Below, piece after piece: positions 31 to 43,705 of a stretch of DNA of 64,000 nt. The position numbers and the translations under genes are program-made. This stretch comes from Lepidodermella squamata (lineage: Eukaryota > Animalia > Gastrotricha): NCBI GenBank assembly GCA_047495785.1, contig JBLDXI010000020.1, positions 1,116,001 through 1,180,000 on the forward strand. Direction: 5' to 3'. How positions within the stretch are numbered: position 1 is the stretch's first letter; each line of letters starts with the position of its first letter. The notes under the pieces are model-generated. The model ran no database searches. It was not told the origin of the DNA and worked only from the letters and a program-made list of their open reading frames with translations.

Positions 31-2011
31 TTACCGGCCAAGCGCGAATAGCTCATGGGCTGTACTACGCCGCACTCTACCAGCCGACATTTCGCGCCTC
101 TCGACCCTGCCCTGGCACATGTGATAGAAAACCATCGCAAGAGAAATCGCAATGAAAACAGCAGAGCTCAAAATTGAAACGACCATAGCAACGTAACGTC
201 GAGTTTGGCTCTCGCTCGAAATGTAGTAATAGCTATTGGCGAAATAAATCAGCTCTTCAGAATCGCCACTCTCCTCGAGTCGGCAATGCGAATGGGCGCG
301 ACCAAAGAAAAAATGACCGGAAATTTTATCACTGCATTCGAAGTTGAGGAAATTCGTAGCTGATGAATATTCAGCAAAAGCCTCTTTAAAAGCTTCCCGA
401 GGTTCAGACGATTGACGGTAGAGAGTTAACTGAAGTTCAGAAGGCGCCTCCCCAGCCGAGTCGAAGCCGAACTTGCAATTCGAGGTAACATTTGGAAGGC
501 TGACTTTGAACGATGTCCGCCGGATGTAGTTGTACAACATCGAGCCATTGCGGATCATTGATCTACACGTAGCGATTGCACAATTTGATTTAAGCACTTT
601 TTTGATAGCATTAGTTCCGGCTAATAGGGCTCTCGTCAATGATTCCAGGCTGTTTGGAACATCAATTGTTAACATTGAGGTGTTTGAAACCATTTTCCGC
701 CAAGAAAATGGATCTTTACAGCTGTTCATTTCGTTTGCACTGACGAGTCCAACTTCTGCATTGACAAGGCGGGTTGAATTCCTAATCATAGCGCTAAATA
801 ATAAAAAATAACGATTATCATTGAATATTTCAAATCCAAGGCCTACCTGGTGAAAACGGTGTATTTCTGGTAATTTCTTGCTATTTTTGCCAATTTTATA
901 GCTCTGAGAAGAGTTGCCGTACCCTCCTCGCCGCAAATGCAAATCACGCCAGGAACTTTTGCATATTGTGAAAGACTTTTCCCAATGAAAACCACATCCA
1001 TAGAACTGCCGGTGAGGATCAAATCAGCCGCGATGGTAACGCCAACTTTAGCTAGTTCGGCCCTCATAACGCGAGCGCCAACTTCAGACTCGTATGAATT
1101 GCTGGAATGCACGAGGTCGACATATCGCCATTTGATAACTTTTCCGATGAGAGCGGCAAAAACTTGAATTTTAACCTTGTCAGATGGCACTGTCCTTGCC
1201 AGAAGGGGGAAGCGATTTCGATCACTGAGCTCAGCTGACTTGGAAGTGTATTCAATCTAGTTGAAAAAAATTATGAAACAAATAAGAAAAAGTATAAATT
1301 AAAAAAAGCGATTAAAAAATCCGCCTTAAAATTTCTGGGTCATATTTTTGTATTTTTTTGAATTTTTGAATTGTGTTATCATTTGAGCGTTCCAATTTTT
1401 TCTCCGTTCAAAATGCACGATTTTTTTTTAAAACACTCAAAATCACGAGATGTGTCTTGGAACCCGGTACCAGCCCGGTACCAGTGCCGGAACCAGCCAA
1501 TGTTACTTTGATGACCACGATGGAAAAGTTTCAAAATCGCCCACCGTTCAAAGTGGATGAATAATATGTCTTTTATTTGTTTACTTACCAAAGGAATATT
1601 GAGCTTATGAAGTTTTGAAGCGACGCTAGCTGTTACACCGCCTCTTCCATCGCAAATGACGAAAGCAACAGTTCGATTATTAGCAACCCTAGCGTTGCTC
1701 CATTTTTCTATTTTCGACGATGCTAATTTCGGCGAGGAACACGAATCGATAACTTCAAAGTCGAGCTTGAACAATTTGTTATTGAAGTATTCATCATTCA
1801 GCTCCCATATCATTCGCCTGGCGTAGCGTACGATTTGCGTGCTACCTGGTACCGAAGAGTTACAAGTGTTATTTCGCCCCTGATTGAGAGGTAGGATAAA
1901 TCCGACTGTCACTACATTGTACTGTGATCGGCTATCAAAACTTGCTGAGTCGAAAAATATTAGAGACAAGTAGGCAATAAGGGCAATATAGTTGTCAATA
2001 CGTCGAAGCAT
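31..2011 (-). CDS. mGluR-like Venus-flytrap (ANF-receptor family) ectodomain protein with a single TM helix; 3 exons (about 2011-1589, 1256-848, ~793-31); may continue beyond the window edge
   Basis: Signal peptide, then VTVGFILP and DSCSSP. Splicing GTAAGT(1588) to AG(1257) gives NIPL|IEYTSKSAELSDRNRFPLLARTVPSD..KWRYVDLVHSSNSY, matching the mGluR lobe-I motif ISYASTSPELSDK.RYP.F.RTVPSD..WxYV. One hydrophobic helix (YVAMVVSILSSAVFIAISLAMVFY) is followed by a basic tail. Confidence 0.75.
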
Positions 2012-2517
2012 AATGACAATAATGTTATTTTTATGACCGCCATTCAAGGCCGTGGTCGATAAAATTGCACACTTATGAATATTGGCGAGACCAGGCTGAT
2101 GTTTGTCCAAGACTTTGCATAAAAATACAGCGCACTTTTATCATTATTGCGCTCGTATTGTAACCGCCAAAAATCAATTACATTCATGACGCACAATGTG
2201 TTGACTCATTAACTGCGATAAAAAACGACTTTTCGTGAATTTTGTCATTTTTATTTCTTATTTTAAAAGAGCCACACCTTGAAATGGACAGCAATAATTA
2301 ACATGATCACGAGATTTTTTATACGACAACGCCCCTTCGAGACTAATGAGATAAGACGACCTCCGGCTGGCATTTCCAAGCACCTAAGTTCGAATTATTA
2401 TATCGTGGACTTTAATTTTCGTCGAGTGCTGCTCATCATTTGGAGACAGAAAACAAGTTTAAATTTGTAAGAAAAAGGAGCACGCGAGTAATCGATATGA
2501 CGAGACGTTGTTTACTC

Positions 2518-4974
2518 TCAATGTTTTGAACTTGATTTGCCGTGAGCTGATTTTGAGGTCGAATCAAGGTTAAGAGTTTGACCGTGTGGATTTGGGGTCC
2601 CCGAAGTTACAGCAAGATCTTCTATGCTCGGTTTCACGATTTCCCGCCGCGTTAACCTTGCTATTATCAAAGGGTAAAAAGCCGCAATAGAAGCTGCCAA
2701 AGTGAAAAATAGGAGACCGAATGCCCAAATGATATTCTTCGCGATATTTCCACCGATCGCTTGAACCGCGATTAAAACGAGCCCATAAATTGTAGCGGCA
2801 ATGATTGCGCCGAATCTAATTGAAATGACCTCATGCTTCAAATACGGCGGAACACAGGCGTGGCGTAGATTGTATGACACTAAAACGGATCCTATAATAG
2901 GAATGGCGTTGAAAGCAGCGAACGCAACATCCCAGTAGAAATTGAACCGCGAGAAGCAAATTCTTGTTGTAACATCAAAGTAATAGTCCTCCGACTCGTC
3001 GAAAGCCGGCGGCGTAACTACGTCAATCCGGCGAAGGAAGCCGAAAGTTCCGAATCTAATGACAAGAACAGCCACGTTCACCAGGGCAATGACAGTCAAA
3101 ATAGCGTTAGAGTATATTTTGAAGGTAGAGAAATGATCGTGAATCATCGCGGCGTCCTCTGGGCTTATAATCCCTGGCAAAGTCCGCCGCCTAAGCTGCT
3201 TTCGCTCTGAAGCATTGAACGTGAAACGGCGCTCCGGAACGCTGAGCCGATGTCTGTTTTTCTTGAAAAATTTCGCCGCGAACGATATTTTATCGAAAAT
3301 TGACCCATTTACAAGACTTATTCCAAGAACTGTTAGGATTGATTTCAAGTTGCAGGTGGGAATAGAAACAGGAGATACAAAGATTACTGCAGAGCCCAAT
3401 AGGAAAACTGACCCTAATACCAGTAAAATATTGCCGGATTTGAGGTCCGTGATTCCATAAATTCCTCTCCTCTTCGATAGGACAAGACAAACAAATGCCT
3501 GACCAGCAAAACTTAAAGATGATAGGATTAAGACTATCAAAAATATTTCCGGTGTCATAGTCTCACGTTTATGAACTATTAAGGATAAATCCGGGGTCGG
3601 TTGGCCATTTTTAGTGTTCCATTTCAGGGCTGAATACCAGTCGATGGTATGATAACTCAAATTTTTAAGCGTGTAGCTAAAATTGCCGTTATGCCACATT
3701 CGTAGGACTATCCTCAGATTGTTCAGCTTCTTGTCGTACTGAGCTATCGATTGAAATCTGCTATCAGCTTCTAGCCGGTCCTGGGAGTAAAACAGCCGGT
3801 GTTGGAGACCCTCATATTTCGTTGTCGAAGCACTGTAATTAACAGCGCTCATGACTTGGTCTGAATTAGTCGAAAAATCTCTCAGTGTTAAATTTTGGAA
3901 ACGGCTCAGATTTTGCTCAGTTTGGTCCAAAGTTACCAGGGTTTGAAGCATGGCATCGTGGCAAGTGTACCGCCTGCCGTAGTCACTGGAGCGTGACGAG
4001 TTCGTCAACGTGTCCAACCGCTTTTCGAACTCGAAAATGTCGTAGCCGAGAGTTGTATTTTTGTTAAGACTTGCGACCAGTCCTTCGAAATTTCCAACGA
4101 AAATCGTTGCATCCAGCATGGTTAGAATCATCCCATTGTCGCAGTCCTTCGGCCAGGTCATATTTTGGATAAATGGGTCAAAATAAGCGTTAGCATAGGC
4201 GATGAATTGATACCGAGGACCTCTGAGTCCTTCTCGGTAAGCCAGGCACATAAACGCCATTAACCTGGGAGATTCATAGAACCCAAGAAAAACCACCCTG
4301 GCATTACTTGCCGTTAAAGATTGAATGATTTCAGCATCTTCGAAGGATATAACCGAGGCAAACCACACAACTGAGATCGATTCAGATTCGAATAGTTCGT
4401 AAAGGAATTTGGCGACTAAAAATTCCGAAATGTTGCCTGGAAAATAGACTATTCCAACTTGTTTCCATTTAGCGATGTTTTTAGCTAAATAGAGTTGCGG
4501 GACAAAGTTTGACTCCTGGGGAGTTACTCTTCGATATAAATTCGGGAATCGAATCCGATCTCCGGTGAAGATGGTCCCAGCGCACCAGGTAGCAAATTGA
4601 ACCATATTAAAATGGCGAACAATTCCTGTAATTGTTTGGCAAATGTAGTAGCTACCGACGATTGCTGGGGCGATGTACCCATCGGAAATACTGCCATCAA
4701 ATTTTGATAGGAATGACATGAGATTGACAGGGGAATTAGTTCCGAGAGATCCTTCATCTTGATAGGTGACTTTAATTTGATAACCGGGTAACAATTTCCC
4801 GTTTTTGTTAACTTCATCGACTGCAACTTGCATGGCAGCCTGGCAAATTTTGCCATCGGCTGGTTCACTGCCAGTGAAAGGAATTAAGGCCAAAAGGTTG
4901 AGAGTTTTGTTCTCCTGGTATGACTCAACAATAATGAACCCTGCGACAGCCAAGTACGATGTTAGCAGGTGCAT
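2518..4974 (-). CDS. Intronless GABA-B-like class C GPCR (Venus flytrap + 7TM), 818 aa
   Basis: Signal peptide, AVDEVNKNGKLLPGYQIK, RFPNLYRR and KWKQVGIV; no cysteine-rich linker; seven hydrophobic helices in the C-terminal ~330 aa, with TM3 and ECL2 Cys. Confidence 0.85.
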   Translation of the reverse strand: MHLLTSYLAVAGFIIVESYQENKTLNLLALIPFTGSEPADGKICQAAMQVAVDEVNKNGKLLPGYQIKVTYQDEGSLGTNSPVNLMSFLSKFDGSISDGYIAPAIVGSYYICQTITGIVRHFNMVQFATWCAGTIFTGDRIRFPNLYRRVTPQESNFVPQLYLAKNIAKWKQVGIVYFPGNISEFLVAKFLYELFESESISVVWFASVISFEDAEIIQSLTASNARVVFLGFYESPRLMAFMCLAYREGLRGPRYQFIAYANAYFDPFIQNMTWPKDCDNGMILTMLDATIFVGNFEGLVASLNKNTTLGYDIFEFEKRLDTLTNSSRSSDYGRRYTCHDAMLQTLVTLDQTEQNLSRFQNLTLRDFSTNSDQVMSAVNYSASTTKYEGLQHRLFYSQDRLEADSRFQSIAQYDKKLNNLRIVLRMWHNGNFSYTLKNLSYHTIDWYSALKWNTKNGQPTPDLSLIVHKRETMTPEIFLIVLILSSLSFAGQAFVCLVLSKRRGIYGITDLKSGNILLVLGSVFLLGSAVIFVSPVSIPTCNLKSILTVLGISLVNGSIFDKISFAAKFFKKNRHRLSVPERRFTFNASERKQLRRRTLPGIISPEDAAMIHDHFSTFKIYSNAILTVIALVNVAVLVIRFGTFGFLRRIDVVTPPAFDESEDYYFDVTTRICFSRFNFYWDVAFAAFNAIPIIGSVLVSYNLRHACVPPYLKHEVISIRFGAIIAATIYGLVLIAVQAIGGNIAKNIIWAFGLLFFTLAASIAAFYPLIIARLTRREIVKPSIEDLAVTSGTPNPHGQTLNLDSTSKSAHGKSSSKH

Positions 4975-5380
4975 GATAAATATTTTATCTAAGAACGAAT
5001 TTCAGCTAGATGACGATCTCGTGTTCAATATTTGTTATAATGAACATAATTGGCGGCTAATTAAGATCTTTCTAGCCAGCAAAAATTTAACACCCGCGTC
5101 AATGAAAAGTGTAGGCAAGGCGCGGATTTTTTTATAGCTTGATCGATTTTAATACACCAAAAAATAAGTCATTTGAGTGCTAGGTCAAACTGCTTGGAAA
5201 ATAGTTAACAAATTTTATTGACATCAGATTTCAACTTTGAGTAGCCTAAAAAACAAATCTAGCCGAAAAAAATTGCGCTGCAATTCAAAGTAAAAATTTG
5301 CTATGATTTTTTCTCATTATTGAAAATTCTGTGAGAAAGGCCACTAGAAATATACTCTCGAGACGTAATAAATATAGGCG

Positions 5381-5733
5381 TTATTTCTTGATATACTCGG
5401 CCTGAATGTTGTAGATACACTCCAGGTATAGCTTGTAGCGGACGAGAAAGGCTTGGGCGAATCCTGGCGCTTTGCTGTCAACTTCTTCTACCAAAGGCGC
5501 AAAGTCGCCTCGCTCTAAAGTTCAAAATTTCAAAATTCAAATGATGAAAACTGACCTGAAAACAAACCTATCAGCTCTTTGTTGCTACTAACTTTCCGGA
5601 CGATTGTTTTCAAGGTGTCCATAGGACTTTCGCCACATTGACCTTTCGAGCGGTGCGCTGCAGCTAATTCGATGGCCAAAATTAGGACAAAAGCGACGGA
5701 ACAGAACTTTGCAAGGTGATCATTACGCGCCAT
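5381..5733 (-). CDS. Small secreted protein, unrecognised 2-Cys family, paralogue A (99 aa, intron 5515-5567)
   Basis: Signal peptide; spliced product ...QCGESPMDTLKTIVRKVSSNKELIERGDFAPLVEEVDSKAPGFAQAFLVRYKLYLECIYNIQAEYIKK*; clear similarity to paralogues B and C. Confidence 0.8.
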
Positions 5734-6906
5734 TTTTTTAGCTAATTCTCCGGATTCAGCAAAATATAATCTATAAATAAAATAGAAAACAACTAATGTC
5801 TGCTGGGATAAGAGATTCGGCTCTTTTTCGCGATGTGAAATGAGAGTACGGAATGGCTGGAAACATATTATATTTAATCGGAGTGCATTACAGTATCATA
5901 TTCCAAAAAATGAGTCTCGTATTAATGAATCAATAACGGGGTATCAATAACCGACTGGCAGTGCCACTGCTCGCCAAATCAGCCTATTTATAGTTTATAC
6001 CAACAGAATTTGGTGTGGAATGCAAATATCTACTTCGCATTTCGCTGAGTGGGAGGCTTGCGCGGCAGTTTTTCAGAAGTTCCAAGCAACAAAAAATTTA
6101 CCTCAAGCAAATAGGAAAAGAAAGTTAAATTCCTCAAGGGACCGCGGCCAAAATAAACCGCCTGGCGTCTAGAAAATTATACGCAGCCCCTGCAATTTTT
6201 TTCTCGACGTCCGATGTTGACTTTATTATACGTCTTCCGGTGTGAGTAATAAAACGCGGGGACACGTAATTGATTTCCACCGTATAGCTAGACTTTCGCC
6301 GGTTTCCTGTAAACATACTTGTTCAGTTTTAGAAGAATTGTGACGATAAAAAAAAGAAGTGCGGAAACCTTTTGGCATACTCTTGATCGATCTGTTTCAA
6401 ACTACGAGTTCAGTTGAACTTGTTACCAAAAAAATATCTAAAATTCAAACCTTGACATTAATTATCTATAATTATTATACGCGTTGAAAGAGGTGTGTGC
6501 ACATTTTCGAACTTTTTTATTATCATTGCGTTTTTTGAATCTCCGATCAATAACGTAAACCAAGATTGCAACAAAACAAAACTTCCTCTTCTTTCCGCGC
6601 TCGCAGTTCCTCTTGCTATATAAGCTAATGGACCTCGATCGAACTTCCGAGGGTGTTGCACCACGATAGCTATCAGCATTCACATTCAGATACGAAAAGT
6701 ATAATAGTTAGCCTATAGAGGTGGGTCAAAAACTCTTGGAAACGGCGGTTGTTAAAGATTTCAGCGGGCATTATGATGTAAGTGATGTCGATGAATGAAA
6801 CTAAGTGAAAAAAAGATAGGGACGCTGAATCGAAACCGCTCATCATAGATTAATAGCTTTTGATTTGGGCTGATTGCTGAGAGATGAATATGGGCTGATA
6901 CTACGA

Positions 6907-7341
6907 CTAGATATAATCCGCCTCTTGCTTGTAAATGCAGTCGATGTAAGCCTTGTATCTGTTGTTAAATGTGACCGTAAAGCCAGGGTATTTCATTTCG
7001 AGCTTCTTCAGTAAATTCACAGCGTTCGCTAAAAATGAGGAAAAAATCCGGAAACAATTAAGGCGGAGTTTTTTGAATTGTCTTTCACCTGGGCTTTCGC
7101 CTAGAAGTTGAGTGCCACCTCCGATGAAAATCTGCAAGCGATGTAGGGGATTCACTCCACATGAAGATTCCACCCGACTTTGGCCTTGATTTCGGACTTT
7201 TTTGCCTGGTTTCGCGCCGACGGCATCTGCGCTTAGAGACATTAGGGCGATAAGTAGTACGGTGAGGAGGATAATTGGAAGACGGCTATTCAGCTCCCGA
7301 CACCGCCGTCGGCTCCGCGTTGATAAAAAACTCTCAATCAT
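6907..7341 (-). CDS. Small secreted protein, unrecognised 2-Cys family, paralogue B (~124 aa, in-frame 60-nt intron 7029-7088)
   Basis: Hydrophobic signal LPIILLTVLLIALMSLSADA; SCGVNP...KYPGFTVTFNNRYKAYIDCIYKQEADYI*; phase-1 GT-AG intron at the same relative position as in A and C. Confidence 0.78.
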   Translation of the reverse strand: MIESFLSTRSRRRCRELNSRLPIILLTVLLIALMSLSADAVGAKPGKKVRNQGQSRVESSCGVNPLHRLQIFIGGGTQLLGESPGERQFKKLRLNCFRIFSSFLANAVNLLKKLEMKYPGFTVTFNNRYKAYIDCIYKQEADYI

Positions 7342-8639
7342 AATCAACTCGCCAGTTTTTATGATGGCGAATTCACTATAGATGACAAACAAAAAAATAT
7401 TGAGATATATTATCTGTAATTTTACGAACGTCTCGAACATTCGACTTCCGCTGCGGAACTCAGTCTGATCTAGCTATTGATACCTCGGAAGTAGGAGTGT
7501 ATTAAAAATTCAAGGGCGTTGGCGGCAGATGGCTGGCTGAGGCCTGTGGAAATCACTCAGTTGCGTCTTTCCGCATTGTCTATATCCGGGGGCAGCCCGC
7601 GCGTGCGCAGCCATGGGAGGCCGACACGTTTTAGCTAATTTTTTAACGCGATTCATCTCGGCCTCGGTCGCGTGGAGACGCAGAGTGTAAATTGATTGTT
7701 TTTTTCCACTTCTTGGCAAATATAAGGAATACCTACATAAATCAGAGGCTATATTCAAGTTGCTAGACAACGCTTGTTTCTAGTGCTGGCATTAAATGGG
7801 ACCCACGCGTCGAAAAAAAGCACAATAGTAGGGTCTAATTGATGCTTCAAGTGACTGGTTCATTTTAGGGTTCTAATTAGCGGCGAGGCTATAGACGCTT
7901 GCCTTCGGCCAAAAGCGTGTGACGGCTTAGCTTTGTCTTCATTTAATGAAGATTTACCTGTGCTAGTTTGGGCAATAATTATCCTCGAAAATCGCGACAT
8001 GTATGATTATAGACGGCTGATCGTGTTCATTCATGAAAACCAGGCTTATCGGTATTTACTTGTGTGATTTCCTGTGAGAAATTCTCGCTATGGGAAATTG
8101 AAGTTTATAGTAAATTTTTCTCGTTCGGAAATTATAGCATGTCGAGCCTGGTAATAAATATTCAAGCGGCTGAATTCAATCATTAGTCGCTTCCTCAATC
8201 GAGTGTTTTTTTTCTTGTTGGGCTGAAAAAATGGGGACGCACGGCAAAAGCCCACGTTTTTTGCCAACTCCAAGCTCAGGAATTTTATGGGAGAAACGAG
8301 TCTCGGAATTTATTCACAGAATATCCTTTAGCGGAAAAAATTTCGCCGAAAAAAATTGCGGAACCTAATTTTCGATGAGCAAAGGGTCGATTTTTGGATA
8401 TTTCTACGAAATTAAGGCAATGAATGAATTCTACAGGGAAGAATGCGTCTTATACAGAATTTTTCGCTGTATTTAATGATGATATATTACCAATTATGTT
8501 GATCAATCAGGACATCCTTGAAAGTTTCGAAAAGTGGCTTTAGGCCCATTTAAAATTCCGAAATTTGGTTCCGCTACAAGTAGGACCCATTTATTTATTG
8601 CGTCATGTATCAAATTTTATTTAATTTCAGCAAAAATGA

Positions 8640-9213
8640 TCATCTAACCATGTCTGATCTCAGGTAAAGACAACGAATAAAAACTAGATAGCGTTCTAAT
8701 AGAACTTTATTCGAGCCAGGAAACCATCGTTCCATCAGGGTGAACAAAACGCTAGGCGGCAATTGATTGCTTGGATTATTCAAATCTAAATTTGGAAAAT
8801 GAACAAATTAATGAAATAAATTCTAATATTTTAAGGAGGCTGTTATTACCTTGCCCGCGAAATAGCATTTTTGCAAAGTTGTCCTTCGCCTTAATCAAAG
8901 GATTAGTACCGCAGTCTTGCTGCGAGTCCAAAGTTGTAACACCGCTGCTGATGGATGAAAGAGATCCTAACATTTGGGCCAGGTGAATGTCATTCATAGG
9001 ACCAAGGGTACTTAGTCGTTTGCCATCTGTCACCAGAGGCAGCTGCTTATTAGTTGCTAGATCAACCAACACCGATGTTAGTATTGTCTTCGCTGTTGTA
9101 GTTGTCTGGTCTGCTCTGGCAGATGATTGCTGACCGGCGAGAAGCCACGTTAAAAACAAACTCATAGTGCAGCACATGGGTGATTTTCGGCTTACAAAAA
9201 ATGGGAATGCCAT
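8640..9213 (-). CDS. Small secreted protein, unrecognised 2-Cys family, paralogue C (169 aa, intron 8786-8849), with an N-terminal pro-region containing GKR
   Basis: DCGTNP...FRGQ|DLNNPSNQLPPSVLFTLMERWFPGSNKVLLERYLVFIRCLYLRSDMVR*; same motif order and intron phase as A and B. Confidence 0.72.
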
Positions 9214-9871
9214 GATTTAGCTGGACACAGCGCTTTTTTCGCAAAATATATAGGTTTATTTCAACTGCCGGACCTGATTGATGAACTTTGTCGAAATTGA
9301 AAGGTGTGTTTGACGTAAGAGCGGTGCGAAACGACTCGTCGCCTGCATGTTTACGTCACGACAAGTCGGGCGAAATTATTTTCAAATTTCAATCAACGCT
9401 AAAATAAACGTGGGCTAATTAATATTGCGCTTCACTTTTTAATTATATTTTAAATATCATCACAGTATAGCGAAGAACGCGATCGCCTTATGGCGTGTCC
9501 CCACAGAAAGCAAACTTATGTCGCTGGGTTTGTTTTGCTGTTCGACGTGGGCTGGTCAATTTGCTATAAGTAAGGTGACGATGCGACTGTTTCTCACATT
9601 TCTCGCACAGCGTAGGAATACCAATCTTACGAAATTGTGTGAAATTATTATCATTGATTACTTATTACTATGCCGGAAGAAGCGACGAGGCCTTAATATG
9701 GGCGAAAATCAAAATAAAATGACGGGAAAATTGAATTTAAACGGCGCTTTTAGCTCCAGTTATTTTCACGGTTCAGCGAGGACTCGGTTGATTGAATTGC
9801 GGGAAAAAAGATGAGCGAGTGCTTTAGGTTCCGTAGAATAAATTGCAATTTTTTTCGAGTCTTGACTGGAT

Positions 9872-11313
9872 ATGGCGTTATCAGCACTAATGACGAATGG
9901 CCTATTCGGCATCAATCATAATGCGACGTCAAGTCCGGCATCAGAAAACGATACTCTGGCGCTGGCTTATGAGCGCTTTTTCGCCGAGCTATCGCGCAAT
10001 CTTAGCCTCACTACAACCGAAGCGCCGGAAATGACGATACCAATCGCCGTAATCATCAGCAATTTATCAGTAATTCTAACAAACATCTCCCACGCTCCAC
10101 CTTGCACGAAAGTTAAAGAGCTACATGTTGTCGAGAAGACATTCTACGGCGTATTAGTGCCGTTCATTTGCCTGCTTGGCATCGGGCTGAACATCCTGCT
10201 TTTAGTCACCCTTGGCAGTCACGGCAGATTCAAGTCGTCAACGCATGTCTACTACCGATTCATCGCAATTTGCCACATATTTTCATTGGCGAGCTATGTT
10301 GCCGATTATGTTGACGCGGTTTTCATCCGAAATAGCCTGATCAGCAGTATATTAGTCGCGTATATCGACTGGCCGATTTCGTCGTTCACGGGGACGCTGT
10401 CCTTACTCTACATAGTCGCAGCGGCTATAGATCGATTTTTCTACCTCTACAAGCCGGTGATTGACGACCGGGCGATGAACAACCGAACAACACTGGCTGT
10501 TGTTGTAGGCGTGAGCCTAGCTGGTTTCGTGGCTCTGTTCAACTCGCCGAGAATGTTCGCCTATACAGTCGATTTTAAAACGGGCTGTAAAAGCACGAGG
10601 TGGGGCCATAGCGTTGAAACGGAATGGTTTATCACGTATTCGTACGTTCGCATCATTTTCTACCACGCTGGTTCGATATTTTTGCTACTCATGTTCAACG
10701 CAATGTTAATCGATCGATTAAAAAGGTGAGCACAAAAAATAATAATTTTTTCTCAAAATTTAATGTTTTTATTGACAGGTTAAATAAATTTCACATTAAT
10801 TATGTCATTGCTGCGTTGTGTGATCGTCGGGCCAAATTGCGTCGTTATCAGGAGCGATCGTTGACCTTGACATTATTGGTGTCAATTTTTGTGACCTTAC
10901 TTGGAGAACGTAATTATCCTCATTAATTATCATGTGAAATTTTTTATAACTTATCTAATGATTTAGTGCCGGCTTTATTTCTCAATCCTCTCAGTGCCGT
11001 TTTGCTGTGGAAAATCAATTCGAACAGCGAAAAATTTCTAGAAATGCGCCGCGTCGGTAAAGTTCTGCTAATCCTCGAGTACGCCGGCAATTTCTTCATC
11101 TGCTTCTTTTTCGATAAAACATTTCGAACGGCGTTTTCGGCGCTGCTCAACAAATGGCGAATGCCGTGTTGCCGTTCGGTTGACAAAATGGCAACGCTGC
11201 GTGGCATGCGGGGTAGTGTTTCCTTACCTCCGGAATTCTACGAAAATCCAGCCTTGGCTGAGCGGAGGGTACGCAGAACCACGCTGGTTCGAAGAACTAC
11301 GACACCGTTCTAA
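9872..11313 (+). CDS. Rhodopsin-class GPCR, FMRFamide/peptide-receptor-like; introns 10726-10778 and 10910-10966
   Basis: TM1 GIGLN, FKSSTHVY, IDRF (DRY equivalent), FNSPRMF, TM7 NFFICFFFDKTFR; splicing keeps the frame. Confidence 0.85.
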
Positions 11314-11366: not shown

Positions 11367-14300
11367 CTAAAATGCAAATAAAACTGAAGCAAACGAATTT
11401 TTTAGTCCTATATGGTCCTATATTGCCCTATATAGATACCCCTGTACTTACCGTCACACTCGAATGCTGGTATGAACCATCGACTCGCGAGGCCACAAGT
11501 TATTTCAAAGAAATGTTGCTGAGTGAAAGGGATGACCTATAAAAAAAATGACTAAATTATTCACAAGTTTAGAGCAAAATTTCCTATAGCAAACCGTGTT
11601 GTTTGGGCAGAAGAAGTAAGCAACAGCTTGATAAGGCCAATAAGGCTTAGTCTCGTTGACGTAAGCCAATAAATTATGCCATGATTTTCCGATAAAAACA
11701 GGAACTAGGCGATCTGGTTTGTAGCAACCAACGCTGGTCAGATAGACCGAGGACGTTATCATATCCCCAACGGTTTGTTTACTGCCACAGAATTGTCTTC
11801 CCTCAGGGTGAGCAGTTCCAGACTGATCAACACAGTCGTCCGAACACGATGAATCATCAAGTTTAACATCAGCTGTTGGCAGTTTATTCAGGCAGAAACA
11901 GTATTTGTCAGCCAGAGCGCAATAGACATATTCCAACTCCATGCAAGCCTCGCGGCAAAGTCTCAACGGATCATAGGCCATTTTCGATATGTCAACGGTT
12001 GAATAAGGATTAAGGGGGTAAGATCCGTTCTGGTACATCCCAACCAGCGTCTTTATCTGGTAAGTTAGCGCAATGTCCTTTGCAGGATCTACTTTGAAGC
12101 AGCCCTTGTAGTAAAGGCTCAGAGTGCAGTCAACTGGTGGCGTTTTGTCCAGCGGATTGGCACTAGCTGCCGGTATCCATAAGGCTTCAGAACTGCATTT
12201 CAAACTCTGTTCATATCCTAGCCAAGCTTCATCCGTGTTCAGTTCGTAACCGATCTGGCAACGGTAGCCGACGTAAGATCTATAAGTTTTGATAGTTCCG
12301 TTATGGGTAGCTTGCGTGACATTAGGAAATGCACCACAGCTTTTCACTGAAATGCACAAACAATGTTTTAGGAGAAATTGGCGATTATCAGCAAAACTTA
12401 CCACTGCAGAAGAAAGGACCAGGCCTCCAAATACTGAGCTTTGATGCCGGATTTGCTACGCAGAATCTAACTGTATCCCTGTCCTCTAGGCCGTTTACTA
12501 CCTCGTAGCCGGGAGCTGAAAAGCCAACCATTAATAACAGAAAAAAATTCGACGAATAATATCAAACCGCAAGCCATATTCATAGCGCTCAGGTAATAGG
12601 GATACCGGGGAACGCTTGAATCATTGACCGGAGCGGTATCTTTTGTGATATTGTATACAATAGCTGAAAAAGTTGCACATGGTTTTCCTGAAAAAAACGA
12701 GATCAAGTTAATTTTATGTCTAACGCAATTTCTAACTTCTGCACTGCGGTAAAGGTTGGGACCATTCGCCAACTGAGTTGCATTTAGAGCCTGAGTAGGA
12801 AGAGTTCCTGATAAGCCAAGAATTACACGCTGCATTGAAATCTGATCCTGGATTATTGTATCTAGTTGGATAGTTGGCTAGTTTCTGATCAGCAATCGGG
12901 CATGTGGATTCACGCCAGCCCTGATCTGAGCAAGTCATCGAAACTTGAAATTCAACTACTTGATCAGGATAATTGGCCGACTGAGCTTCACAAGTGAATG
13001 AAGCTTGCTCGTCTTTACTGTATTGCGGCTTTAATGGAGATGCCCCTGAAGAAGCTGCACGAGGGCATGGTGCTGGTGGTACCCGGCAGGATGCGGCAGA
13101 GCACGGTCTCAAGCAATTGTTCTTGGTTTTGCACACGAATCGATTGTAGCCGTAAGTTTGATCAGTTCCGCTGCTTAGAGATCCAGGCACCGAATTTGCC
13201 GGACTAGAAAATTGGGTGGTCACATTTTCGAGCCGAAGAAGTGCGCTATCGTTGCTCCAAAGACCCGGTGGAAGATTGTAAGGTACCGAGTTTGACCCTT
13301 TCGTCAGCCACCCCCAGTCGCCCCAAACCACTGAAATAGGCAACGAAGTGAAGAATTTCTTGCCGATGTCTGAGTAAACTTACATTGAGCTCGAGATGTA
13401 GCGACCTTCCGGCAGGCTGTTTGCAAGGGCCCGATATCTTGCGACGTCAACACTGTGGTATACAACGCAACACAGGTCAAATATCCTTTGAATTGACCGA
13501 TATCGACTCGACTGAAATCAGCAGAGACAGGCGTCAAATTTGAAGAACCACAGATTGTTCCGTTAAGATAAACTGTCAATTGGTTAGATTCGCCGTCGTA
13601 GGTAACGACGAAGTGTGACCAGACAAAATTCGGAAATCGGCATTTCGTCAGGTTGGCTACGGAGCTATCTACGATTTGCACACCAAGCATATTTGAAGGA
13701 AAAGTCCTCAGTGAAAAAGAATCGGTCCTGAAGATAGCATTTGAGCCAACCAGTGGCGAGTCCCGGTAAATGAAATAAGAAATGCTGAAACGGGTCATGG
13801 CACTTGAGACTCTAGTCGCGTACTGAAGTCCAGTATAACCACTGAAGCTGTACGAGGATGGTTTCGTGATGGAGCTGAGGAAAGGCCCATGATCCACAAG
13901 AGTGGCTGCCGATATATTTCTTGTCCCTGCGCCAATGTAGTTATCCGTCAAATCATCAGCGCGATAAATGCTAGTCAACGGCCAGAAACCCAGGGTGAAA
14001 CTTGGCAAATAAACATCTTCGTGGGCTGAAATATATTCAGGGAAAAAAGCGCCTTTGGATAGGAGTAATCAGCGTACTTCGAAATTTGCAATTTGCCAAG
14101 CAGCCCGATCCTTTTCCATCGCAGCTCTCGCCCAAATCAAGTCTATTGTCTCCACATTTAGGTCGAGCTATAGGAAGTGGATTTGTTTAAAAACACCAAG
14201 TTTAACAGGTTATAATCGTTTTCCCTACCATAAGCACCCGTTTCACAGAATGACGTTGACCCCATAATTTCCAAATCAAGCTCTGCGAGAACCCAAGTGA

Positions 14301-17300
14301 AGTTGCGGCCAGAACCGTATGTGGTTGCTAACAAAAAGTATTGATCCTTCGTTTTCACAGTACCAGTGTCGAAAAACTGCGGCGGATTCGGTTTGGCCAG
14401 GTATTCATACAACCCAGAAAAATTGTTCGCTGAATACAGCTTATCCCAGCCAATCCAGTATTGCTGATTCACTTGAATCAAATGAACTAATAGTTTCAAA
14501 ATCATATCAGTGCAAGAAGGCTCACGTCTGAAGTATATCAACCCCAAGGCGAAGTGCCACGGCTGCTGAACCATGTTTGCGTAATTATAGAAAAATGAAT
14601 TTTGAGCTCGGTCCCTCGGAAAGGCGAGAGAGCCGCCCCTCCTTCGACAATGGCGCCATACGCTCGGCGCGGTTCTGCTGAATAGAACCTGCGGCTCGTA
14701 GAAATAACAGTAGTTACCATATGGCCAAAAATCGACAGGGCAAGCTGGTAAGAATAGAATATCAATAACTTAGTGAATCTATCTTGACCTAAAAACCAAC
14801 AGCTAAAGCGACGGCAGTAAGAAGCTAACGATCCCATATTGGACCAGACGATTGGGCGATCAAATAGCATGAAACAGCCCATGTTGCCGATTATGCCGGG
14901 TTGGTTCCAATCCGTTCTTTTCCAGCCGAGCAAAACTGGATCAGATGGCAATCCATGCGACTGATAGTTGGCAAGGCCAATCGCAGTCCGATTCAGGGTC
15001 ACGTTGAATATAGATTTGAATTTACTAAGAAAGCTGGCCAGTCCGGTGGTAGCGTCGTAGGAGTAGAAATAAAACCGAGAACTTGAGATGATAACACATT
15101 TTTGCTACGAAAAATACTGAAGAAATTTCTTACTTCATCATAAAGCCTGAGTTGCCTGTTGCTGACTCTGTCGCTACGGAAATGTCGCTTTCTGACCCAT
15201 CAGGATGTTTCATGTAGAGCCTCATCTCGCGTTGCGATAGTGTCCCCGATGGCGTTGTGGTTGATGAAGTTACAGGTGGGTTCAAGAGATCTATCGTGGT
15301 ATTAATCGTATTGCTAATCAAGTCTCGCTTCTTCCTTCCCGCTGGGCTTGAATAGGTCAACACGAAGTAATAACCGACTTCGACGAATCCTCCAACACAA
15401 GCTCTGAAGTCATAATAAATCATGAAAATAGATAACCAGGGAGGTGTAATTTTACAGAGTCCGTCTGACTGAATCTGTGACGTTCGGGGTGGCCCAATAG
15501 AATCCGAAAGTAAACGATCGATTTGGAGAAATGTCGTAAGCTGGCCATTGAGACGGCGGAACGAGTCTCAAGCTACAATGAGTTGTAAGAATCTCGAAAA
15601 CAACTACTAAAATTTCACCTCGAATATCCTGAAAATGCCGCGGTTTCGGCATTGAGCAATTCCCGATTTGCCGTTTTCGCTGCATTTACTAGCCCCAAGA
15701 AGCTGTAAGATATTGATCCGTAAGCAATTTCGCCAACTGCACGCTGATAGCCGACATCTTCGAGCCCGTACTGCGCTGTTAGAGGCCAAAGTCCGATCAA
15801 GTTGGGCGCGAAAGGTAGTTTCAACATCGATTGACCCTCAAGTTGACATCTGCCTGAACATCCGTCGCCAGAGACCATATTGCCATCGTCACACTCTTCA
15901 AAGCCATCAATCTCGCCATTGCCACAATTCGAGTCTAACCCAGCGACGATGAGATATTCGCACGAAGTTTTGAACGATGATAGAGCAGACTGCCGTGATG
16001 ATGAGTTCTGGAGAAAATCCGAATACATGGCGGCGCAAGCTATCGGGCCGTAAACTCCGCGCCCTATCTTAAGGGAGAAGTTTGAAGTAGGATTGCCCGA
16101 TGTTGACGCAAAGGTGAAGTTCGCTAAGGTAGTGTCGTTCGAGACAACGAAAACATGAGTAGCATTGCAGGTCAACCCTAAAGCCATCCATTTATTCAAA
16201 AATGTTGAGTTCATAGGACTTGACGTAGGGAATCGCCACAATACTGAATCTAAGCTGCTACCATACTGCATCCAAAGAGTGTTGTTGATTCGGCTGCTAC
16301 TTCTCTGGAAATAAAATCCTCCATTCGTAGCATCGTAGCAGAACATGTGGCCTTGGTAATATGTCGATCCGGCAGGATTATTGTTCGTGGTGAAGAGTGA
16401 TACTTCGAAGAAACATGACGATTCTGGCAGATAGTTCGACTGGAATGTGTTAGTATTTTGACTGAATCTGCCGTAGATGAAAAACGTCATCGGGCAAGTG
16501 ATGGAGTCTGAGAAGTAGTTCGACAGGTCGTGATAGTCTGAATTGTATCAACTTGAAGCTCTCAGCAAAGTTAAGCTAATTTTCTTACTGTAGGGGGTGA
16601 AAATTGGGACCCTAGCCGTCATTGACCACGGAACTGAAGTCATTTCGGGAAGACCCCCGACAAATGATCCGTGCCTCTCGTTGCCGCTAAGATCAGATTC
16701 AAGTAGTCGGCTTTCTGAATAAGCCCAGAATCCCATCATCGAAGAAACGGAGAAATTGCCAGCAATACCTATCGCAAGAAATCAAACTTCGAAGTTAATG
16801 AAATTAATCTTTAGTTACTTGGCCGAAGACGCTGTAACAATCCGACTGTATATTGCCTATCTGCGCTTAGAAGTCCATTAATCTCCTCGTATTCCGCCAA
16901 AGATTCAATATAGAGCGGAGAGGTTGGCTCGCCTAGGACTCCGTTTGTGCAAACATTATTAGCCACTGTCAAAGATTCAGCAAAGCTTGTGAAACAAACA
17001 TTTTGACATCAGTTGTAACTGAGTTTTTAGTTCACGTACTATTCGGCAATAAAATAGCAATTACCACGCCAGAGAATGAACCCGGCGGGGCAGCAATTTT
17101 GCTCCTCAACTAAGCACGTATCACTGCAGCCATCCATTGACTCGCGATTTCCGTCATCACAAGTCTCGCCCAACTCCACAACTTTATTGCCGCAAACGCC
17201 TTGGAAGCCTAAGGCAGTCACATCTAATTGGATGAAAACTTGAATGAGCGAAATTATTCTTCCATGGTGAACATACTTTTCGAGTAGTCTTGGCAGACAG

Positions 17301-20300
17301 CACGCAATTGGTTTATCTCAATTTCAGTCAATAGGCAATCGTAAATTGCCAAGCATTTGATTGAAACGGCACTTAGGAATGGAGTATTTACTATCACTTC
17401 GATTGGGAAGCTGATGTAAGGCGGCATCTGAATAGCTTCGAAGAACGTGTAGTTAGCAAGCCTGGCATTTATGTATGCCTTAGCCATCAGGCTATCGAGG
17501 TCCAATGAGAATGTGACAGTAAACGGGAATGAAAAACTACCGCTGACAGCCAAAACCTGTGGTTCGTACCAATAGTAATGTTGGACGATGATAATAACGG
17601 TTTTGTAGCCAATTTTAACGGTTAGGGTTGAGTTGGGACCAAAAGCCATAGCTGTAACAGGTAAATCACCCGATGCGAGATTAATGCTTGTAACCAAGAA
17701 AGAAACGCTTATTTCCGAAGAGAAATTGAAGTTTTCAACAGGCAAGGATTCAGTAATATAGGTTGAGTTTGAAGCTGGTGTGCTATTCCAAGCCAAGCTT
17801 AAAGGTCCTCTGTCGACATCATTGAATCTGCCTTGCCCAAATGGCCAAAACGAAATCAAGTGATCGTAAACCGGGAATTTACCTAAGAAATCAGAGCATT
17901 AGCTGTTCATATGAATCGTTAAGCCTTACTGTATCGAGCTGATGAGCTGAATTGATAAAGCGGTCTGGCTAATGTCTTCGAGCAATCGACTGTTCTCAAA
18001 CCAGGATTTACCTCTGAGATATCCATGACAACACACCAAGTTGGCGAATTCTGTGAAGGCTGCCCTTGGAGCCACATCGAACTATCAATCGATTTATTGG
18101 ATGATAGCCAAAGGTATTCCGAACGACTCGGATCAAAGAATGCTCCAACCCAAAATAGCTTTGCTGAAGTTGAGTTAGCGAGAGATGTAAACTCAATGGC
18201 ATCACTGACCGCATTGAACGTATCTTCTTCAGTAAAATCTGCCACATTTCCACCCTTGGGGACAAATGCCATAGCGTAGGAGAAGTTCATCCCGTTAGTG
18301 AAAGAAGAGTTTTCACGGTAGGAGTAACAGAAACCATTCAGCTCAACTGCCCACTCTCCGCAGTTGCTTGTGTTAATAATTGAATTGAGTGTGCAAGCTT
18401 CGACGCATCGATCCATCCCAACCCATGTTCCATCAGATTGGCAAGTTATTGCCTTGTTGTTATCCCCAGTGCTTAGGAAAACTGCCGTATCAGATTCACA
18501 CTCGATTGTGGCGGTATTGCCTGATAATATAAGGGTAAAAGCTATCTTTTGAATTTATCAAAAAACCTGAGTAAAATGTAGATATTTCGTTGCAGAGGAA
18601 CACCATACTCAGAGCTGATTGCACGCTTTTTGATGGCAAGGGACACAATGGTACTGAAAAAGAAGACTGGTAACTTGCATCTATGAAACGCTCATCACGT
18701 ACTGAATGTCATTGGCTTTGGAGCATTGGAGACGTTCGCCGATGTGAAAAGTGACGATGAAACCGGGGCGCGGCAAAAGCTCTGATAAGTTTCTCCAGTG
18801 CTAGCATTGCATGTATCCAGCTGGAATAGGTTCGATTCATCGAGATATGGGCATAGAGCTGGGTATCAAAATAGCTGGAAAAATTGAAGCTATAGTGGCT
18901 TAATGTTTTACCTTCGACACAAGGTGGAAGGTCACTCCAGCCCGTAGATTGCTGACAGGTGATATTTTTTGTAACGTCAAGATCGCGAAACCGGAAATTA
19001 GCGATGCAGCGAATTATCACTGATGAATTAACTGAAAATCAAATCCTGAAATATTGGCATGTTCGGCAGATATTTCGCCATATACTTGGATATGAATTAT
19101 TCGGCAATGTGACTGTTGCCCAGCTGCCACCAAGGGACATGACCTCGTAATTACTATAAAAAAGGGGCAACGCCGAACATCTTGTGACCGCCATTGCTGT
19201 TGCATTGTCAGTAGCGACTCGGCCACAGCCTGGGCTCAGTGGACGCTCGCAGATGAAATACTGCGCTTTAGAGCAGGCATCTGGATACCACATCCCATCC
19301 CTCGATTCCATTGCGTAGCACGTATTTGTTGTTAGAACAGTCGATTGAACTTTTGTTCCCTTGGCTAGATTACTGTACACTGAACCCTTTGTCGCGTCTT
19401 GGTCTGTGTAAAACCAATGCGGTTTCGTCAGCCGAGCTTCGACTGCGAGAGATCATCACTAGATTACATTGCGTATTTACTTAAAACTTACTGTCGGGGA
19501 TACTTTCCCCACTCTGCGAGCAAACTACATTGAATGGATAAGCTAGAGCATTATAGCACATCGGGTGATATGTGAAAATAAACCAGCTCGATCGATCAAT
19601 TCGATACCATAAAGCAACTCTCAAAGAATCGTCGGGCGGTATCTCCGGGCAACTAATGAATGTAAGGCCTGCATTTATTATTGTGCCGAAGAAGGAATCA
19701 GCGGTTGGGGAGGAACCATCATCCTCCCATACGAAATTATCTGAAATATCGGTCATCATTGGGGAAATAAGGATTCGAATCATACCAAGGGCGAATTTTG
19801 CCATGTAGTTGCCCGTATCAAAGCTCAGGTTGACAGCATTACTAGGCCATTGCTTTGAGGCCTTCAGGTTGGCAGATAACACCAAATTGGTCCACAAGCC
19901 GAAACGGTACTTGGAATTACTCCCTTGTGCTGACATTCTGGGACTCCTAATCATAAATCCCAAAACTGCATCGGCTTGAGCATCGTTATCAATGCGCAAC
20001 AAATTCGGCCAATTCGAGCCGCCGCAAAAGCTGACCACACTATTATAAGGCAGCAGAGTTGTCAGCATTTTGAAGCACCGGCCCTGTAGTGGCACATAAT
20101 CGATCGGACAGGATATGTCTAAAAGGCATATTATAAAGCTCATATTTACATTATTGTAAAGCGATCAGAATTTACATGAGCTGATCGCAGATTTCCAAGC
20201 TGACCGATCAGGCTCAATCACGAGGGCAGCTTCACAGAAAAAAGTCCGGTAATCATAGTACCCACGGGGAAACATGGTCCACGATCCATTCACAGAGCCA

Positions 20301-23300: not shown

Positions 23301-24857
23301 CTGCTGTCACGGCTTTCCAATTGAACGCTTTGAAACTCCATCGGCCAATTTGCCAGAGGAAAAGAGTTGGAATATCGAAGGCAAGCAGCTTCTCCGTTCA
23401 CTTTTACTTCTTTGGATCCCCGCAAGCACCCAGCTCAAATGATAAATCGTATACGAGATTCTCTCATGAAAATGTAGTTCATTAACTTACATGGTCTGAA
23501 TTCACAAACAAATCCGCCTATAAGAGACGTGCAATTATCTAGGGTCATGACCCTCGAAGAATTCATCGAAACGCACAGCTGGTTTCCAGTTCCTGATGTT
23601 GTAGGCGAGCTTACCGTGACGTTGACCAAGGAAGGAGTAATGATTCGACCTCTCATGTCAACAACTGAAGGAGAGAGCTCAAACCTTGTTGTATAAATTC
23701 GAAAAATCTTACGAGGTCCAAAGTTGATGTTTGATGTTCCGCCATTAGCCGCACTTGTAATCGCTGGGTTGTAGTATCCAAGCCAAAACTTAGTGGAATT
23801 CGTAGCGTTTACTCGTTGTATTGAAACGCGAATCAAATCAAAGTTGATACTGATGGGGTTCAGATTAGTCGGTGCAGCTAAAGTGCCTCCATTTTGCTGA
23901 CATCTGCTTTGGGCGCTCAGAAAGTTGACTTGCTGTCTGTATGTAACGTAGATAGCTCTTGGCTCAGCTATTTCATCGCAATCAGTCACTTTTATAAGAC
24001 AAAATAGAGATAGTAAGGTAACATGTGATCAGAATTACTTCCGCTTAGGGTGTGCTTCCTAGCCAGGAGTCGAATTCGTTGAATCGTGGCCTGGCGATCA
24101 GAGTAATTAGCAATTCGGAGATCAGTCCCGACGAATGAGCTACAAATGCCATCCCACCAGCCAGTAGCCATTGAGCCGCAATTAGGTAGAGGGCTGTCCG
24201 ATGTTGCAAAAGATCCGCAAGTTGTCCCTGTACCTTGGCTACATCTCAACAGCGAAGGAGCTGTGGCGAGAGAGATTTATTTACTATCTAATTGTAGTAG
24301 CATGGTAACTTGCCTCTCATTGGATTGCACGTTAAATTCAACCCGCTGGTGCCAGATTGTGAAATAGCATACCGATCTCCGGAGCCAGCAATCTTGAATC
24401 CGTCATAGGCCTGCCAAAAATACCGGCCGTAGTTGTCCCAAACTTCAGCAACAATTGCATAGGCTCCATCGTAAGTTAACGCGAAAATCTGGTCGTTTCC
24501 CAGCCAAAAACTATCGGCTAGATTACCAAAGCCGTCTTTGTAGTCCTGCCATGGCCTGGCGAAATCGACGGGCCCTGACAGGTTACGATTGAAAATAACC
24601 GTCCAGCCCCCGCCAAAGTCGTTCATCTCGCAATAGGCATCGAACGATGAGCTTAGTTTTGTTGGTTGTATGCGGTAGATTCCGCTAGCTGCTGAGCCAT
24701 TGCTCAACAGAATTTGTTCGCAGTCACCTGAAGCTGTAGTCGAACACTGACCATTTGCTAAAAAGAAGAAAATTCGATGCTAGAAAACCTTTCAAGGCAA
24801 ATAGGTACCTTTGTTGTATAGAAGCAACAATATTATTATTCTTTCAAAAATCTTCAT
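11367..24857 (-). CDS. Giant secreted mosaic protein (~3,800 aa, ~38 short introns): fibrinogen-related domain, many C-type lectin domains, sushi/CCP, LamG/pentraxin-like domains, CDDGN-type Cys repeats, WSC domain
   Basis: ATG 24857 with signal peptide. Every ORF fragment from 24707 to 11505 joins in frame through 45-62 nt GT(GC)-AG introns. Motifs: FReD (YCEMNDFGGGWTV..WQDYKDGFG..FWLGN), CTL (CPEGW..CY..W..A..C..WIG), CGNGEIDGFEECDDGNMVSGDGCS, WSC (YKGCF..CREAC..YCFC). Last confident exon ends at 11452; the 17-nt terminal exon 11367-11383 is tentative. Confidence 0.8.
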
Positions 24858-25115: not shown

Positions 25116-25545
25116 TCAGTAGTTATAAGCAAAAGCAATGATTCCGATGGTTGCCAAGAGAAGAATACTGGGCGAAGCCACGAAATTTCCAGCATTGCAA
25201 AGATCCGTATTACAGCACGATACCCCTACAGTGGAACCACTGATTGTTATCGTGGATGGGCAAACTGATGTACAATCTCGTGTGTAAAGTGTAGTTGTGA
25301 TGCTACGCGGGAAAATTAAATGTTTTTATTATTTGATACACCCGCATCAGATTGAATTTTACTTACCCAGCCGTCAGAGTAAGAGTCGCCTTGCCGTAGT
25401 AGCAATAACTGACACCAGAGTCGCAAGTTTTCGCATCACCCTGTGCCACACAAGCTGAACAGCTGTAGCATTTCAACGCCGATACATTCGACGCAGATGC
25501 AATGATAAGGCCCAGAAACAAGGTGATTCGCGCAATATTTTGCAT
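25116..25545 (-). CDS. Ly6/uPAR (three-finger) GPI-anchored protein 1; 2 exons
   Basis: Signal peptide; LKCYSCSAC..CDSGVSYCY..TRDCTSVCP..SCCNTDLCN followed by a hydrophobic tail. Confidence 0.88.
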
Positions 25546-33047: not shown

Positions 33048-33159
33048 AAGGAATGATGAAAAAACTCAAAATCAGCAATCATCTCAGCAATAAGAAATAA
33101 CCGGCGATAAGCACGAACCAAATTTTTATATTAGCTCATTTTTATCACAGCCCATTTTA

Positions 33160-42874: not shown

Positions 42875-42959
42875 CCAATATTCTGAAGCGGGTGAGAAAA
42901 AACACTAGTGAACAAACAACAAATCTTGCAAGGTAGAAAAGTATTACTTATATTAAGCA

Positions 42960-43594: not shown

Positions 43595-43705
43595 AACAAT
43601 GATTAGTTTATTTTAGAAATTTACAGCCGCCTTAAATGATAATAGAGCAGCTTCTCATATTTTCTATCGAATTTAGCAGAAATAAATTGTTGAATTTCGA
43701 ATATT

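What the first reader, a model, noticed from the sequence alone, without database searches (positions are those of the whole stretch)
5381..9213. Tandem trio of an unrecognised small secreted protein family
Seen: three same-strand genes share a signal peptide, C-G-x-[SN]-P, a phase-1 intron at the equivalent position, and a C-terminal PG[FS]xxx[FL]xxRYxx[YF][LI]xC[IL]Y motif (A: PGFAQAFLVRYKLYLECIY; B: PGFTVTFNNRYKAYIDCIY; C: PGSNKVLLERYLVFIRCLY). The second exons of A and C are absent from the ORF track, so the family is easy to miss. I cannot match it to a known hormone, toxin or odorant-binding family. Inference: a ~65-aa helical domain closed by one disulfide; a candidate new hormone, pheromone or ligand-carrier family, located between an orphan class C GPCR and an orphan peptide-type GPCR.
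Basis: partly seen in the sequence, partly recalled or inferred. Interest (0 to 1): 0.78.

Follow-up and report, generated by a model that had tools for sequence, protein, structure and literature searches.

The report
Orphan secreted two-cysteine helical protein trio
Three neighbouring genes in an invertebrate genome are spliced in a cDNA-like run, vary almost only at silent sites, and encode related small proteins with no match in the libraries searched; they are predicted to be secreted helical proteins closed by one disulfide that likely act as signalling molecules, but no receptor is shown and the receptor genes beside them may be coincidence.

Summary
Three minus-strand, two-exon genes (99, 124 and 169 aa) share a core of about 65-70 aa with two invariant cysteines. 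A cDNA-like run skips all three GT-AG phase-1 introns, and a DNA-like run shows none of those joints. In genes A and B, 8 of 9 coding differences are silent (P about 6e-5), so these are constrained proteins.

No homolog turned up in Pfam, NCBIfam, PDB, the ESM Atlas or 1.84 billion representatives. Those searches were weak: they used exon pieces only, and the paralogs score each other at or below the cut-off. Exon 2 is predicted as a helix-PG-helix hairpin (pLDDT 88) with no telling fold match.

Best reading (0.4): a lineage-restricted family of secreted, folded protein ligands, more hormone-like than pheromone-like because of the purifying selection. The GPCR neighbours are weak evidence, since about 7 of 20 other genes in the window are receptor-like. 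The signal peptide of C is weak, and the disulfide and function are untested. The scan had not noted this family on other DNA; it did note another orphan tandem family in this genome.

The parts
5568..5733 (-). Gene A coding exon 1: predicted signal peptide, C-G-E-S-P motif (Cys33) and first predicted helix
   Evidence: covered by X1 contigs 5568-5763
5515..5567 (-). Gene A intron, 53 nt, GT-AG, phase 1
   Evidence: joint 5514/5568 in X1, absent in X2
5381..5514 (-). Gene A coding exon 2: helix, PG turn, long helix with the R-Y-x-x-Y-L-x-C-I-Y motif (Cys88); stop. X1 cover runs on to 5235
7089..7341 (-). Gene B coding exon 1: Arg-rich n-region, hydrophobic stretch, basic pro-like segment, C-G-V-N-P (Cys61). 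X1 cover stops at 7279, so the ATG at 7341 is modelled, not seen in cDNA
7029..7088 (-). Gene B intron, 60 nt, GT-AG, phase 1, open in frame in the window; a second X2 allele has 6 substitutions and a 1-nt insertion here
6907..7028 (-). Gene B coding exon 2 with PG turn and the C-terminal motif (Cys115); stop
6498..6906 (-). Gene B 3' UTR; AATAAA at 6521-6516 and poly(A) at 6498
   Evidence: 19-nt T loose end before 6498 in X1; sequence
8850..9213 (-). Gene C coding exon 1: weak predicted signal peptide, extension of about 65 aa with a KR site (residues 65-66), C-G-T-N-P (Cys101)
   Evidence: X1 contig 8897-9222
8786..8849 (-). Gene C intron, 64 nt, GT-AG, phase 1
   Evidence: joint 8785/8850 in X1
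8640..8785 (-). Gene C coding exon 2 with PG turn and the C-terminal motif (Cys160); stop
2518..4974 (-). Neighbour: intronless class C-type GPCR, downstream of A; not shown to be linked
   Evidence: ANF_receptor E 2.3e-19, 7tm_3 E 0.0011
9872..11313 (+). Neighbour: rhodopsin-type GPCR, divergent from C; not shown to be linked
   Evidence: 7TM_GPCR_Srx E 0.0013 and 7tm_1 E 0.0031, both under the curated cut-off; sequence

Best explanation
Three spliced, related genes under purifying selection encode small proteins that are predicted to be secreted, to fold as a three-helix domain likely closed by one disulfide, and likely act as hormone-like protein ligands at an unidentified cell-surface receptor. 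Shown: gene structure, splicing, relatedness and constraint. Predicted: the signal peptide sends each protein into the secretory route, and the variable segment before C-G-x-[SN]-P is kept or trimmed (dibasic sites lie there in B and C). The N-terminal helix packs on the helix-PG-helix hairpin, and Cys1 bonds to the Cys near the end of the long C-terminal helix. Inferred: the invariant R-Y...C-x-Y stretch beside that bond is the receptor-facing or fold-critical patch, and the three paralogs carry different signals. The receptor may be one of the many GPCRs or Venus-flytrap receptors of this genome, but need not be a flanking gene.
For: Splicing of all three introns in X1 with no such joints in X2. 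8 of 9 coding differences in A and B are silent against 23% expected, P 5.8e-5, or 1.4e-3 at a lenient 35%; the one replacement is residue 6 of A, in the predicted signal peptide. Only two Cys in each core, both invariant, with 53-58 residues between them. AF2 on the exon-2 alignment gives helices 5-14 and 18-42, pLDDT 88. No second hydrophobic segment and no GPI-like tail; A and B cores are near neutral (+0.8, +0.9). The core is a folded domain without conserved internal dibasic sites or an amidation Gly, unlike short-neuropeptide precursors (sequence; general knowledge). Precedent for this mode of action: mouse ESP1, a 7-kDa three-helix protein with one disulfide that acts through a V2R (PMC7826187, abstract and passages).
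Against: Nothing here tests secretion, the disulfide, tissue or a receptor. The full spliced domain could not be folded or searched; the intron-retaining model of B is poor (pLDDT 58). C's signal peptide is weak and B's ATG is not covered by cDNA. Purifying selection fits carriers and structural proteins just as well, and it rests on 9 sites, 7 of them in B. GPCR adjacency is about a 1-in-10 chance event here. Only 1 of 9 segments tested was significantly amphipathic.
Confidence: 0.4

Rival explanations
1. Small carriers of lipids or odorants that work like secretoglobins: helical monomers with one Cys near each end, which would pair between chains into a dimer around a hydrophobic cavity.
For: One Cys near each end of a helical domain of about 65 aa, tandem paralogs and conserved hydrophobic positions. 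The secretoglobin layout is recalled, not from a call.
Against: No Pfam or PDB sequence match on the pieces. A three-helix monomer is small for a cavity. Long, variable N-terminal extensions are not typical of carriers (inference).
Confidence: 0.2
2. Structural or gland secretions (cuticle, eggshell, adhesive, seminal or feeding secretion) in which the two Cys cross-link chains.
For: Predicted secretion, tandem array and lineage restriction.
Against: No low-complexity or repeated sequence; compact conserved core; only two Cys.
Confidence: 0.18
3. Antimicrobial or membrane-active helical defence proteins, like reduced saposin-type proteins.
For: Small, helical, predicted secreted; the C core is cationic (+3.7, pI 9.5).
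Against: A and B cores are near neutral; 2 Cys rather than the 6 recalled for saposins; weak amphipathicity; purifying rather than diversifying pattern; no Pfam match on the pieces.
Confidence: 0.12
4. Not freely secreted: B (and perhaps A) keeps its hydrophobic segment as a type II anchor or organelle-targeting signal, and the domain acts at a membrane.
For: B has a 20-residue Arg-rich n-region before a strongly hydrophobic 19-mer (2.43); C lacks a strong hydrophobic core.
Against: A has a typical short n-region, hydrophobic core and small residues at a plausible cleavage site (sequence). One family with three different destinations is less economical.
Confidence: 0.1

Closest known systems
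Rodent exocrine gland-secreting peptides (ESP1 family; PMC7826187)
   Same: About 7 kDa, three helices, two conserved Cys forming one disulfide, clustered two-exon genes, lineage-restricted. ESP1 acts through a V2R (class C GPCR, recalled). A working analogy only.
   Different: ESPs occur only in murid and cricetid rodents, the mature part is intronless and resembles alpha-globin, and dN/dS is high with positive selection in 8 of 17 clades. Here the intron splits the core, variation is almost all silent, and no sequence match was found.
Secretoglobins (uteroglobin family; features recalled)
   Same: Small helical secreted domain of about 70 aa with a Cys near each end; tandem genes.
   Different: No Pfam or PDB sequence match on the pieces. 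They are vertebrate four-helix dimers; oligomer state here is untested.
Folded invertebrate peptide hormones: insulin-like, CHH/ITP, eclosion hormone (features recalled)
   Same: Signal peptide, optional pro-segment with dibasic site, helical disulfide-bonded domain of 50-75 aa; a C-G followed by a helix is loosely like an insulin B chain.
   Different: They have 4-8 Cys in fixed patterns; the core here has 2. No Pfam or PDB sequence match on the pieces.
Saposin-like proteins, arthropod OBP/CSP, nematode FAR/NPA (features recalled)
   Same: Small secreted helical proteins in tandem arrays.
   Different: Cys number or domain length differ; no Pfam match on the pieces.

Membership tests
ESP pheromones | Mature sequence encoded by one intronless exon, signal on a separate exon | tested here: not met
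   Feature from PMC7826187; here the intron lies 21-24 residues after Cys1, inside the core
ESP pheromones | Two conserved Cys in a helical domain of about 7 kDa | tested here: inconclusive
   Two invariant Cys and 7.5-8.4 kDa cores; helices predicted for exon 2 only; bond not shown
ESP pheromones | High dN/dS | tested here: not met
   8 of 9 coding differences silent in A and B, pN/pS about 0.04; polymorphism, few sites
ESP pheromones | Activation of a class C GPCR | not testable with these tools
   Needs a receptor assay
Secretoglobins | Profile match to the family | tested here: inconclusive
   No match in Pfam or PDB sequences, but only exon pieces and intron-retaining B were scanned
Secretoglobins | Disulfide-linked antiparallel dimer with a ligand cavity | not tested
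   The spliced domain could not be modelled as a dimer
Insulin-like, CHH/ITP and eclosion hormone families | 4-8 Cys in the family spacing (recalled) | tested here: not met
   Two Cys in each core; other Cys lie only in the first 15 residues
Saposin-like proteins | Six (rarely four) conserved Cys (recalled) | tested here: not met
   Two Cys in each core
Short-neuropeptide precursors (FLP/NLP/NPF type) | Peptides bounded by conserved dibasic sites, often with an amidation Gly (recalled) | tested here: not met
   Dibasic sites are not conserved among A, B and C and no C-terminal Gly-basic signal is present
Classical secreted proteins | Cleavable signal peptide | tested here: inconclusive
   Hydropathy supports A and B and is weak for C; no SignalP available

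The most novel reading that the evidence does not exclude
A new family of folded protein hormones or social signals that are the ligands of this lineage's expanded Venus-flytrap (class C) receptors: an invertebrate counterpart of the rodent ESP-V2R system, evolved independently, possibly with the single-pass ANF_receptor gene at 31-2137 as a decoy or co-receptor.
Probability: 0.12. Interest if true: 0.75.

Novelty: new variant of a known kind. Interest (0 to 1): 0.42.

Why it matters
It is a real, expressed, constrained protein family that none of the searched libraries holds, and ORF-based annotation would miss or mis-model it (B's intron is open in frame; the second exons of A and C are under 50 codons). 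If it is a ligand family, it offers three small, easily made candidates for deorphanising the many class C and rhodopsin-type receptors of this lineage. If it is a carrier or gland protein, it is one more orphan family from an under-sampled animal genome, which is common and of modest interest.

Tried and rejected
Homolog searches, all blank or spurious:
- Pfam on 5 trio pieces at E up to 10 and on 4 exon pieces at E up to 1: 0 families.
- NCBIfam on 6 pieces: one weak row, far under its cut-off.
- Word search with intron-retaining B: 0 of 25 candidates at E up to 1. Word search with exon-2 alignment A4 among longer proteins: 0 of 94 at E up to 10.
- HMMER of A4 against 1.84 billion representatives: 2 hits, both rejected as summed internal repeats, one a repeat protein and one a duplicated LytTR domain.
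- PDB sequences: 5 weak irrelevant rows for A4 and 0 for B.
- ESM Atlas: best 0.77, then no usable hit twice.
- Metagenome loci L001 and L002: the 15-residue match lies in a stop-ridden frame without the other motifs, so it is chance.

Sensitivity limit: leave-one-out exon-2 profiles score A 32.3, B 34.3 and C 8.6 bits, against about 34-35 bits for E 0.001 (extrapolated). Relatives as distant as these paralogs would be missed.

Folds: the intron-retaining B model is poor and has no Foldseek match. The exon-2 hairpin has no Foldseek match, and VIA-align's best Z is 4.8 (rmsd 2.3, 43 aligned) among generic helical pairs. The complex job with B's two exon products gave 'no answer' (0.03) and is no evidence either way.

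No fourth member was found in the window (next best E 2.7). There is no nucleotide similarity among the three genes and no shared upstream word of 9 or more letters in all three. Rfam: 0. No RNA holder is on record as RNA; X1 has no cover at the start of the class C GPCR (4900-5070), which shows nothing. No whole genome is held, so other copies could not be counted. The 41-nt intron model for A was rejected by the X1 joint.

Literature searches (listings only unless stated) surfaced no description of this family, but keyword searches cannot find a motif. Supplements were not read and could hold such sequences.

Full report
Setting. The window is a compact animal genome with short AT-rich introns. 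It holds class C and rhodopsin-type GPCRs, a giant lectin/sushi/WSC/fibrinogen gene, EB-module and Ly6-like genes, a nuclear receptor, glutaminase and transposons. A nematode is plausible from a weak Srx match, the EB modules and an earlier unchecked note (e1-10291658), but I did not establish the taxon. No whole genome is held. Three window GPCR ORFs are absent from the protein collection, and the best glutaminase hits are about 50% identical, so the lineage is poorly sampled.

Observation. Three minus-strand genes lie at 5381-5733 (A), 6907-7341 (B) and 8640-9213 (C). Run X1 is listed as RNA only by guess. It behaves as cDNA: it skips 5515-5567, 7029-7088 and 8786-8849, each GT-AG; it has a poly-T end at 6498, 18 nt from an AATAAA; it has loose ends that I recognise from memory as SMART adaptor; and it has no cover in the intergenic bins. 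Run X2 covers all 30 bins and has none of these three joints. This is one RNA-like run from one study. With these joints the proteins are 99, 124 and 169 aa and all introns are phase 1. A uses the upstream donor, not the one I first modelled. B's intron is open in frame in the window, but a second X2 allele carries 6 substitutions and a 1-nt insertion in it, as expected for an intron.

Relatedness. Local scores against 5000 shuffles are z 17.2 (A-B, 0 reach it), 6.1 (A-C, 3) and 6.3 (B-C, 2). Leave-one-out core profiles score A 35.1, B 36.9 and C 14.9 bits. A and B are clear paralogs; C is a more distant but supported member, given the shared motifs, intron phase and position. Core identity is 32, 21 and 31%, with 11 invariant columns: C, G, P, L, L, P, G, R, Y, C, Y. 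There is no nucleotide similarity among the genes, so the duplications are old. No further member lies in the window.

Constraint. In the complete table for A and B, 9 differences fall in coding sequence. Eight are silent; the other changes residue 6 of A, in the predicted signal peptide. With 23% silent sites, P is 5.8e-5, or 1.4e-3 at 35%; pN/pS is about 0.04. Seven of the 9 are in B. For C, one silent difference is listed, but that table was cut (40 of 102 rows shown), so C is left out of the count.

Anatomy. A has a typical signal-like start. B has a long Arg-rich n-region before a strong hydrophobic stretch, and X1 cover stops at 7279, short of its ATG. C's hydrophobic core is weak. Between the predicted signal and C-G-x-[SN]-P lie about 6, 20 and 65 residues, with KK in B and KR in C. 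Each core has just two Cys, with 54, 53 and 58 residues between them. AF2 on the three exon-2 pieces gives helix 5-14, a turn at PG and helix 18-42, pLDDT 88, pTM 0.51. The segment after C-G-x-x-P is amphipathic in A only, the 1 significant segment of 9 tested. A three-helix domain closed by Cys1-Cys2 is the simplest model, but the spliced domain could not be folded here, so the bond is inferred.

Homologs. None were found: Pfam, NCBIfam, word searches (0 of 25 and 0 of 94 candidates), PDB sequences, the Atlas and metagenome contigs (2 chance matches). HMMER over 1.84 billion representatives gave 2 hits, both summed-repeat artefacts. This is weak evidence of novelty. Only exon pieces or intron-retaining B could be used, and exon-2 leave-one-out scores (32.3, 34.3 and 8.6 bits) are at or below the roughly 34-35 bits needed for E 0.001.

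Neighbours. The flanks are a class C-type GPCR (ANF_receptor E 2.3e-19) and a rhodopsin-type GPCR (7tm_1 E 0.003, under the cut-off). By my hand count about 7 of 20 other host genes in the window are GPCR-like. Four have Pfam support for a receptor domain; three rest on hydropathy and inspection. Both flanks being receptors then has a chance of about 0.11, and Ly6-like genes sit beside receptors too. Adjacency is a lead at most.

Mechanism. I favour a folded, secreted, hormone-like protein ligand (0.4). The reasons are old paralogs, strong constraint, a compact core with a conserved aromatic and basic patch near the C-terminal Cys, variable pro-like segments, and near-neutral charge in A and B. 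Rivals are a secretoglobin-like carrier (0.2), a structural or gland secretion (0.18), a defence protein (0.12) and a membrane-tethered form (0.1). The nearest working analogy is mouse ESP1 (PMC7826187; I read the abstract and search passages): 7 kDa, three helices, one disulfide, clustered genes and a V2R receptor. Membership fails on gene structure and selection pattern. Features of the other families compared are recalled. PMC7668243 was searched for four terms and gave one reference line. All other papers were seen as search listings only.

Verdict. This is a real, expressed, constrained family with no detected relative, of a familiar general kind. Its function is untested and the receptor link is unsupported. 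Interest 0.42.

Noticed in passing
window 8258-8613: High-copy repeat: X2 depth 3455-4985 against about 100-150 nearby. It overlaps the 3' UTR region of gene C, whose tandem AATAAA lies at 8599-8590; no second copy in the window.
   Followed up: partly
window 5682-5763 (X1 loose ends): Two X1 loose ends at gene A carry the same 12-nt piece after an adaptor-like GGG. It has no match with fewer than 2 mismatches in the window. It may be a spliced leader or a library chimera; orientation is unclear and no SL paper surfaced.
   Followed up: partly
window 31-2137 (-): Multi-exon gene with an ANF_receptor (Venus-flytrap) domain (E 2e-12), one predicted TM and a short tail, next to the class C GPCR; NPR-C-like or decoy receptor layout.
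   Followed up: partly
window 25119-25575, 28581-28805, 29607-30249, 51413-51895, 53922-54343 (-): Five small Ly6/uPAR/CD59-like genes with signal-like starts, several with GPI-like tails. Four have weak to moderate Pfam support; one rests on inspection.
   Followed up: partly
window 2518-4974, 38017-40488, 48567-51143: Three intronless, divergent class C-type GPCRs in 64 kb, suggesting a lineage expansion.
   Followed up: partly
window 31870-33065, 33160-34182, 40541-41716 (-): Multi-pass membrane genes, GPCR-like by eye, with no receptor family in Pfam at E up to 1.
   Followed up: no
window 11505-24779 (-): Giant multi-exon gene with fibrinogen C, WSC, and by eye C-type lectin, sushi and laminin-G-like modules.
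   Followed up: no
window 34811-37361 (+): Two tandem EB-module, Cys-rich genes.
   Followed up: no
window 42957-48117: LITAF-like gene with a His-rich start, a divergent nuclear receptor and a divergent glutaminase (best hits about 50% identical).
   Followed up: partly
window 58198-60193 and 62539-63199: Harbinger-type transposon (MADF gene facing a DDE_Tnp_4 transposase) and a fragment that by eye resembles a non-LTR retroelement endonuclease.
   Followed up: no
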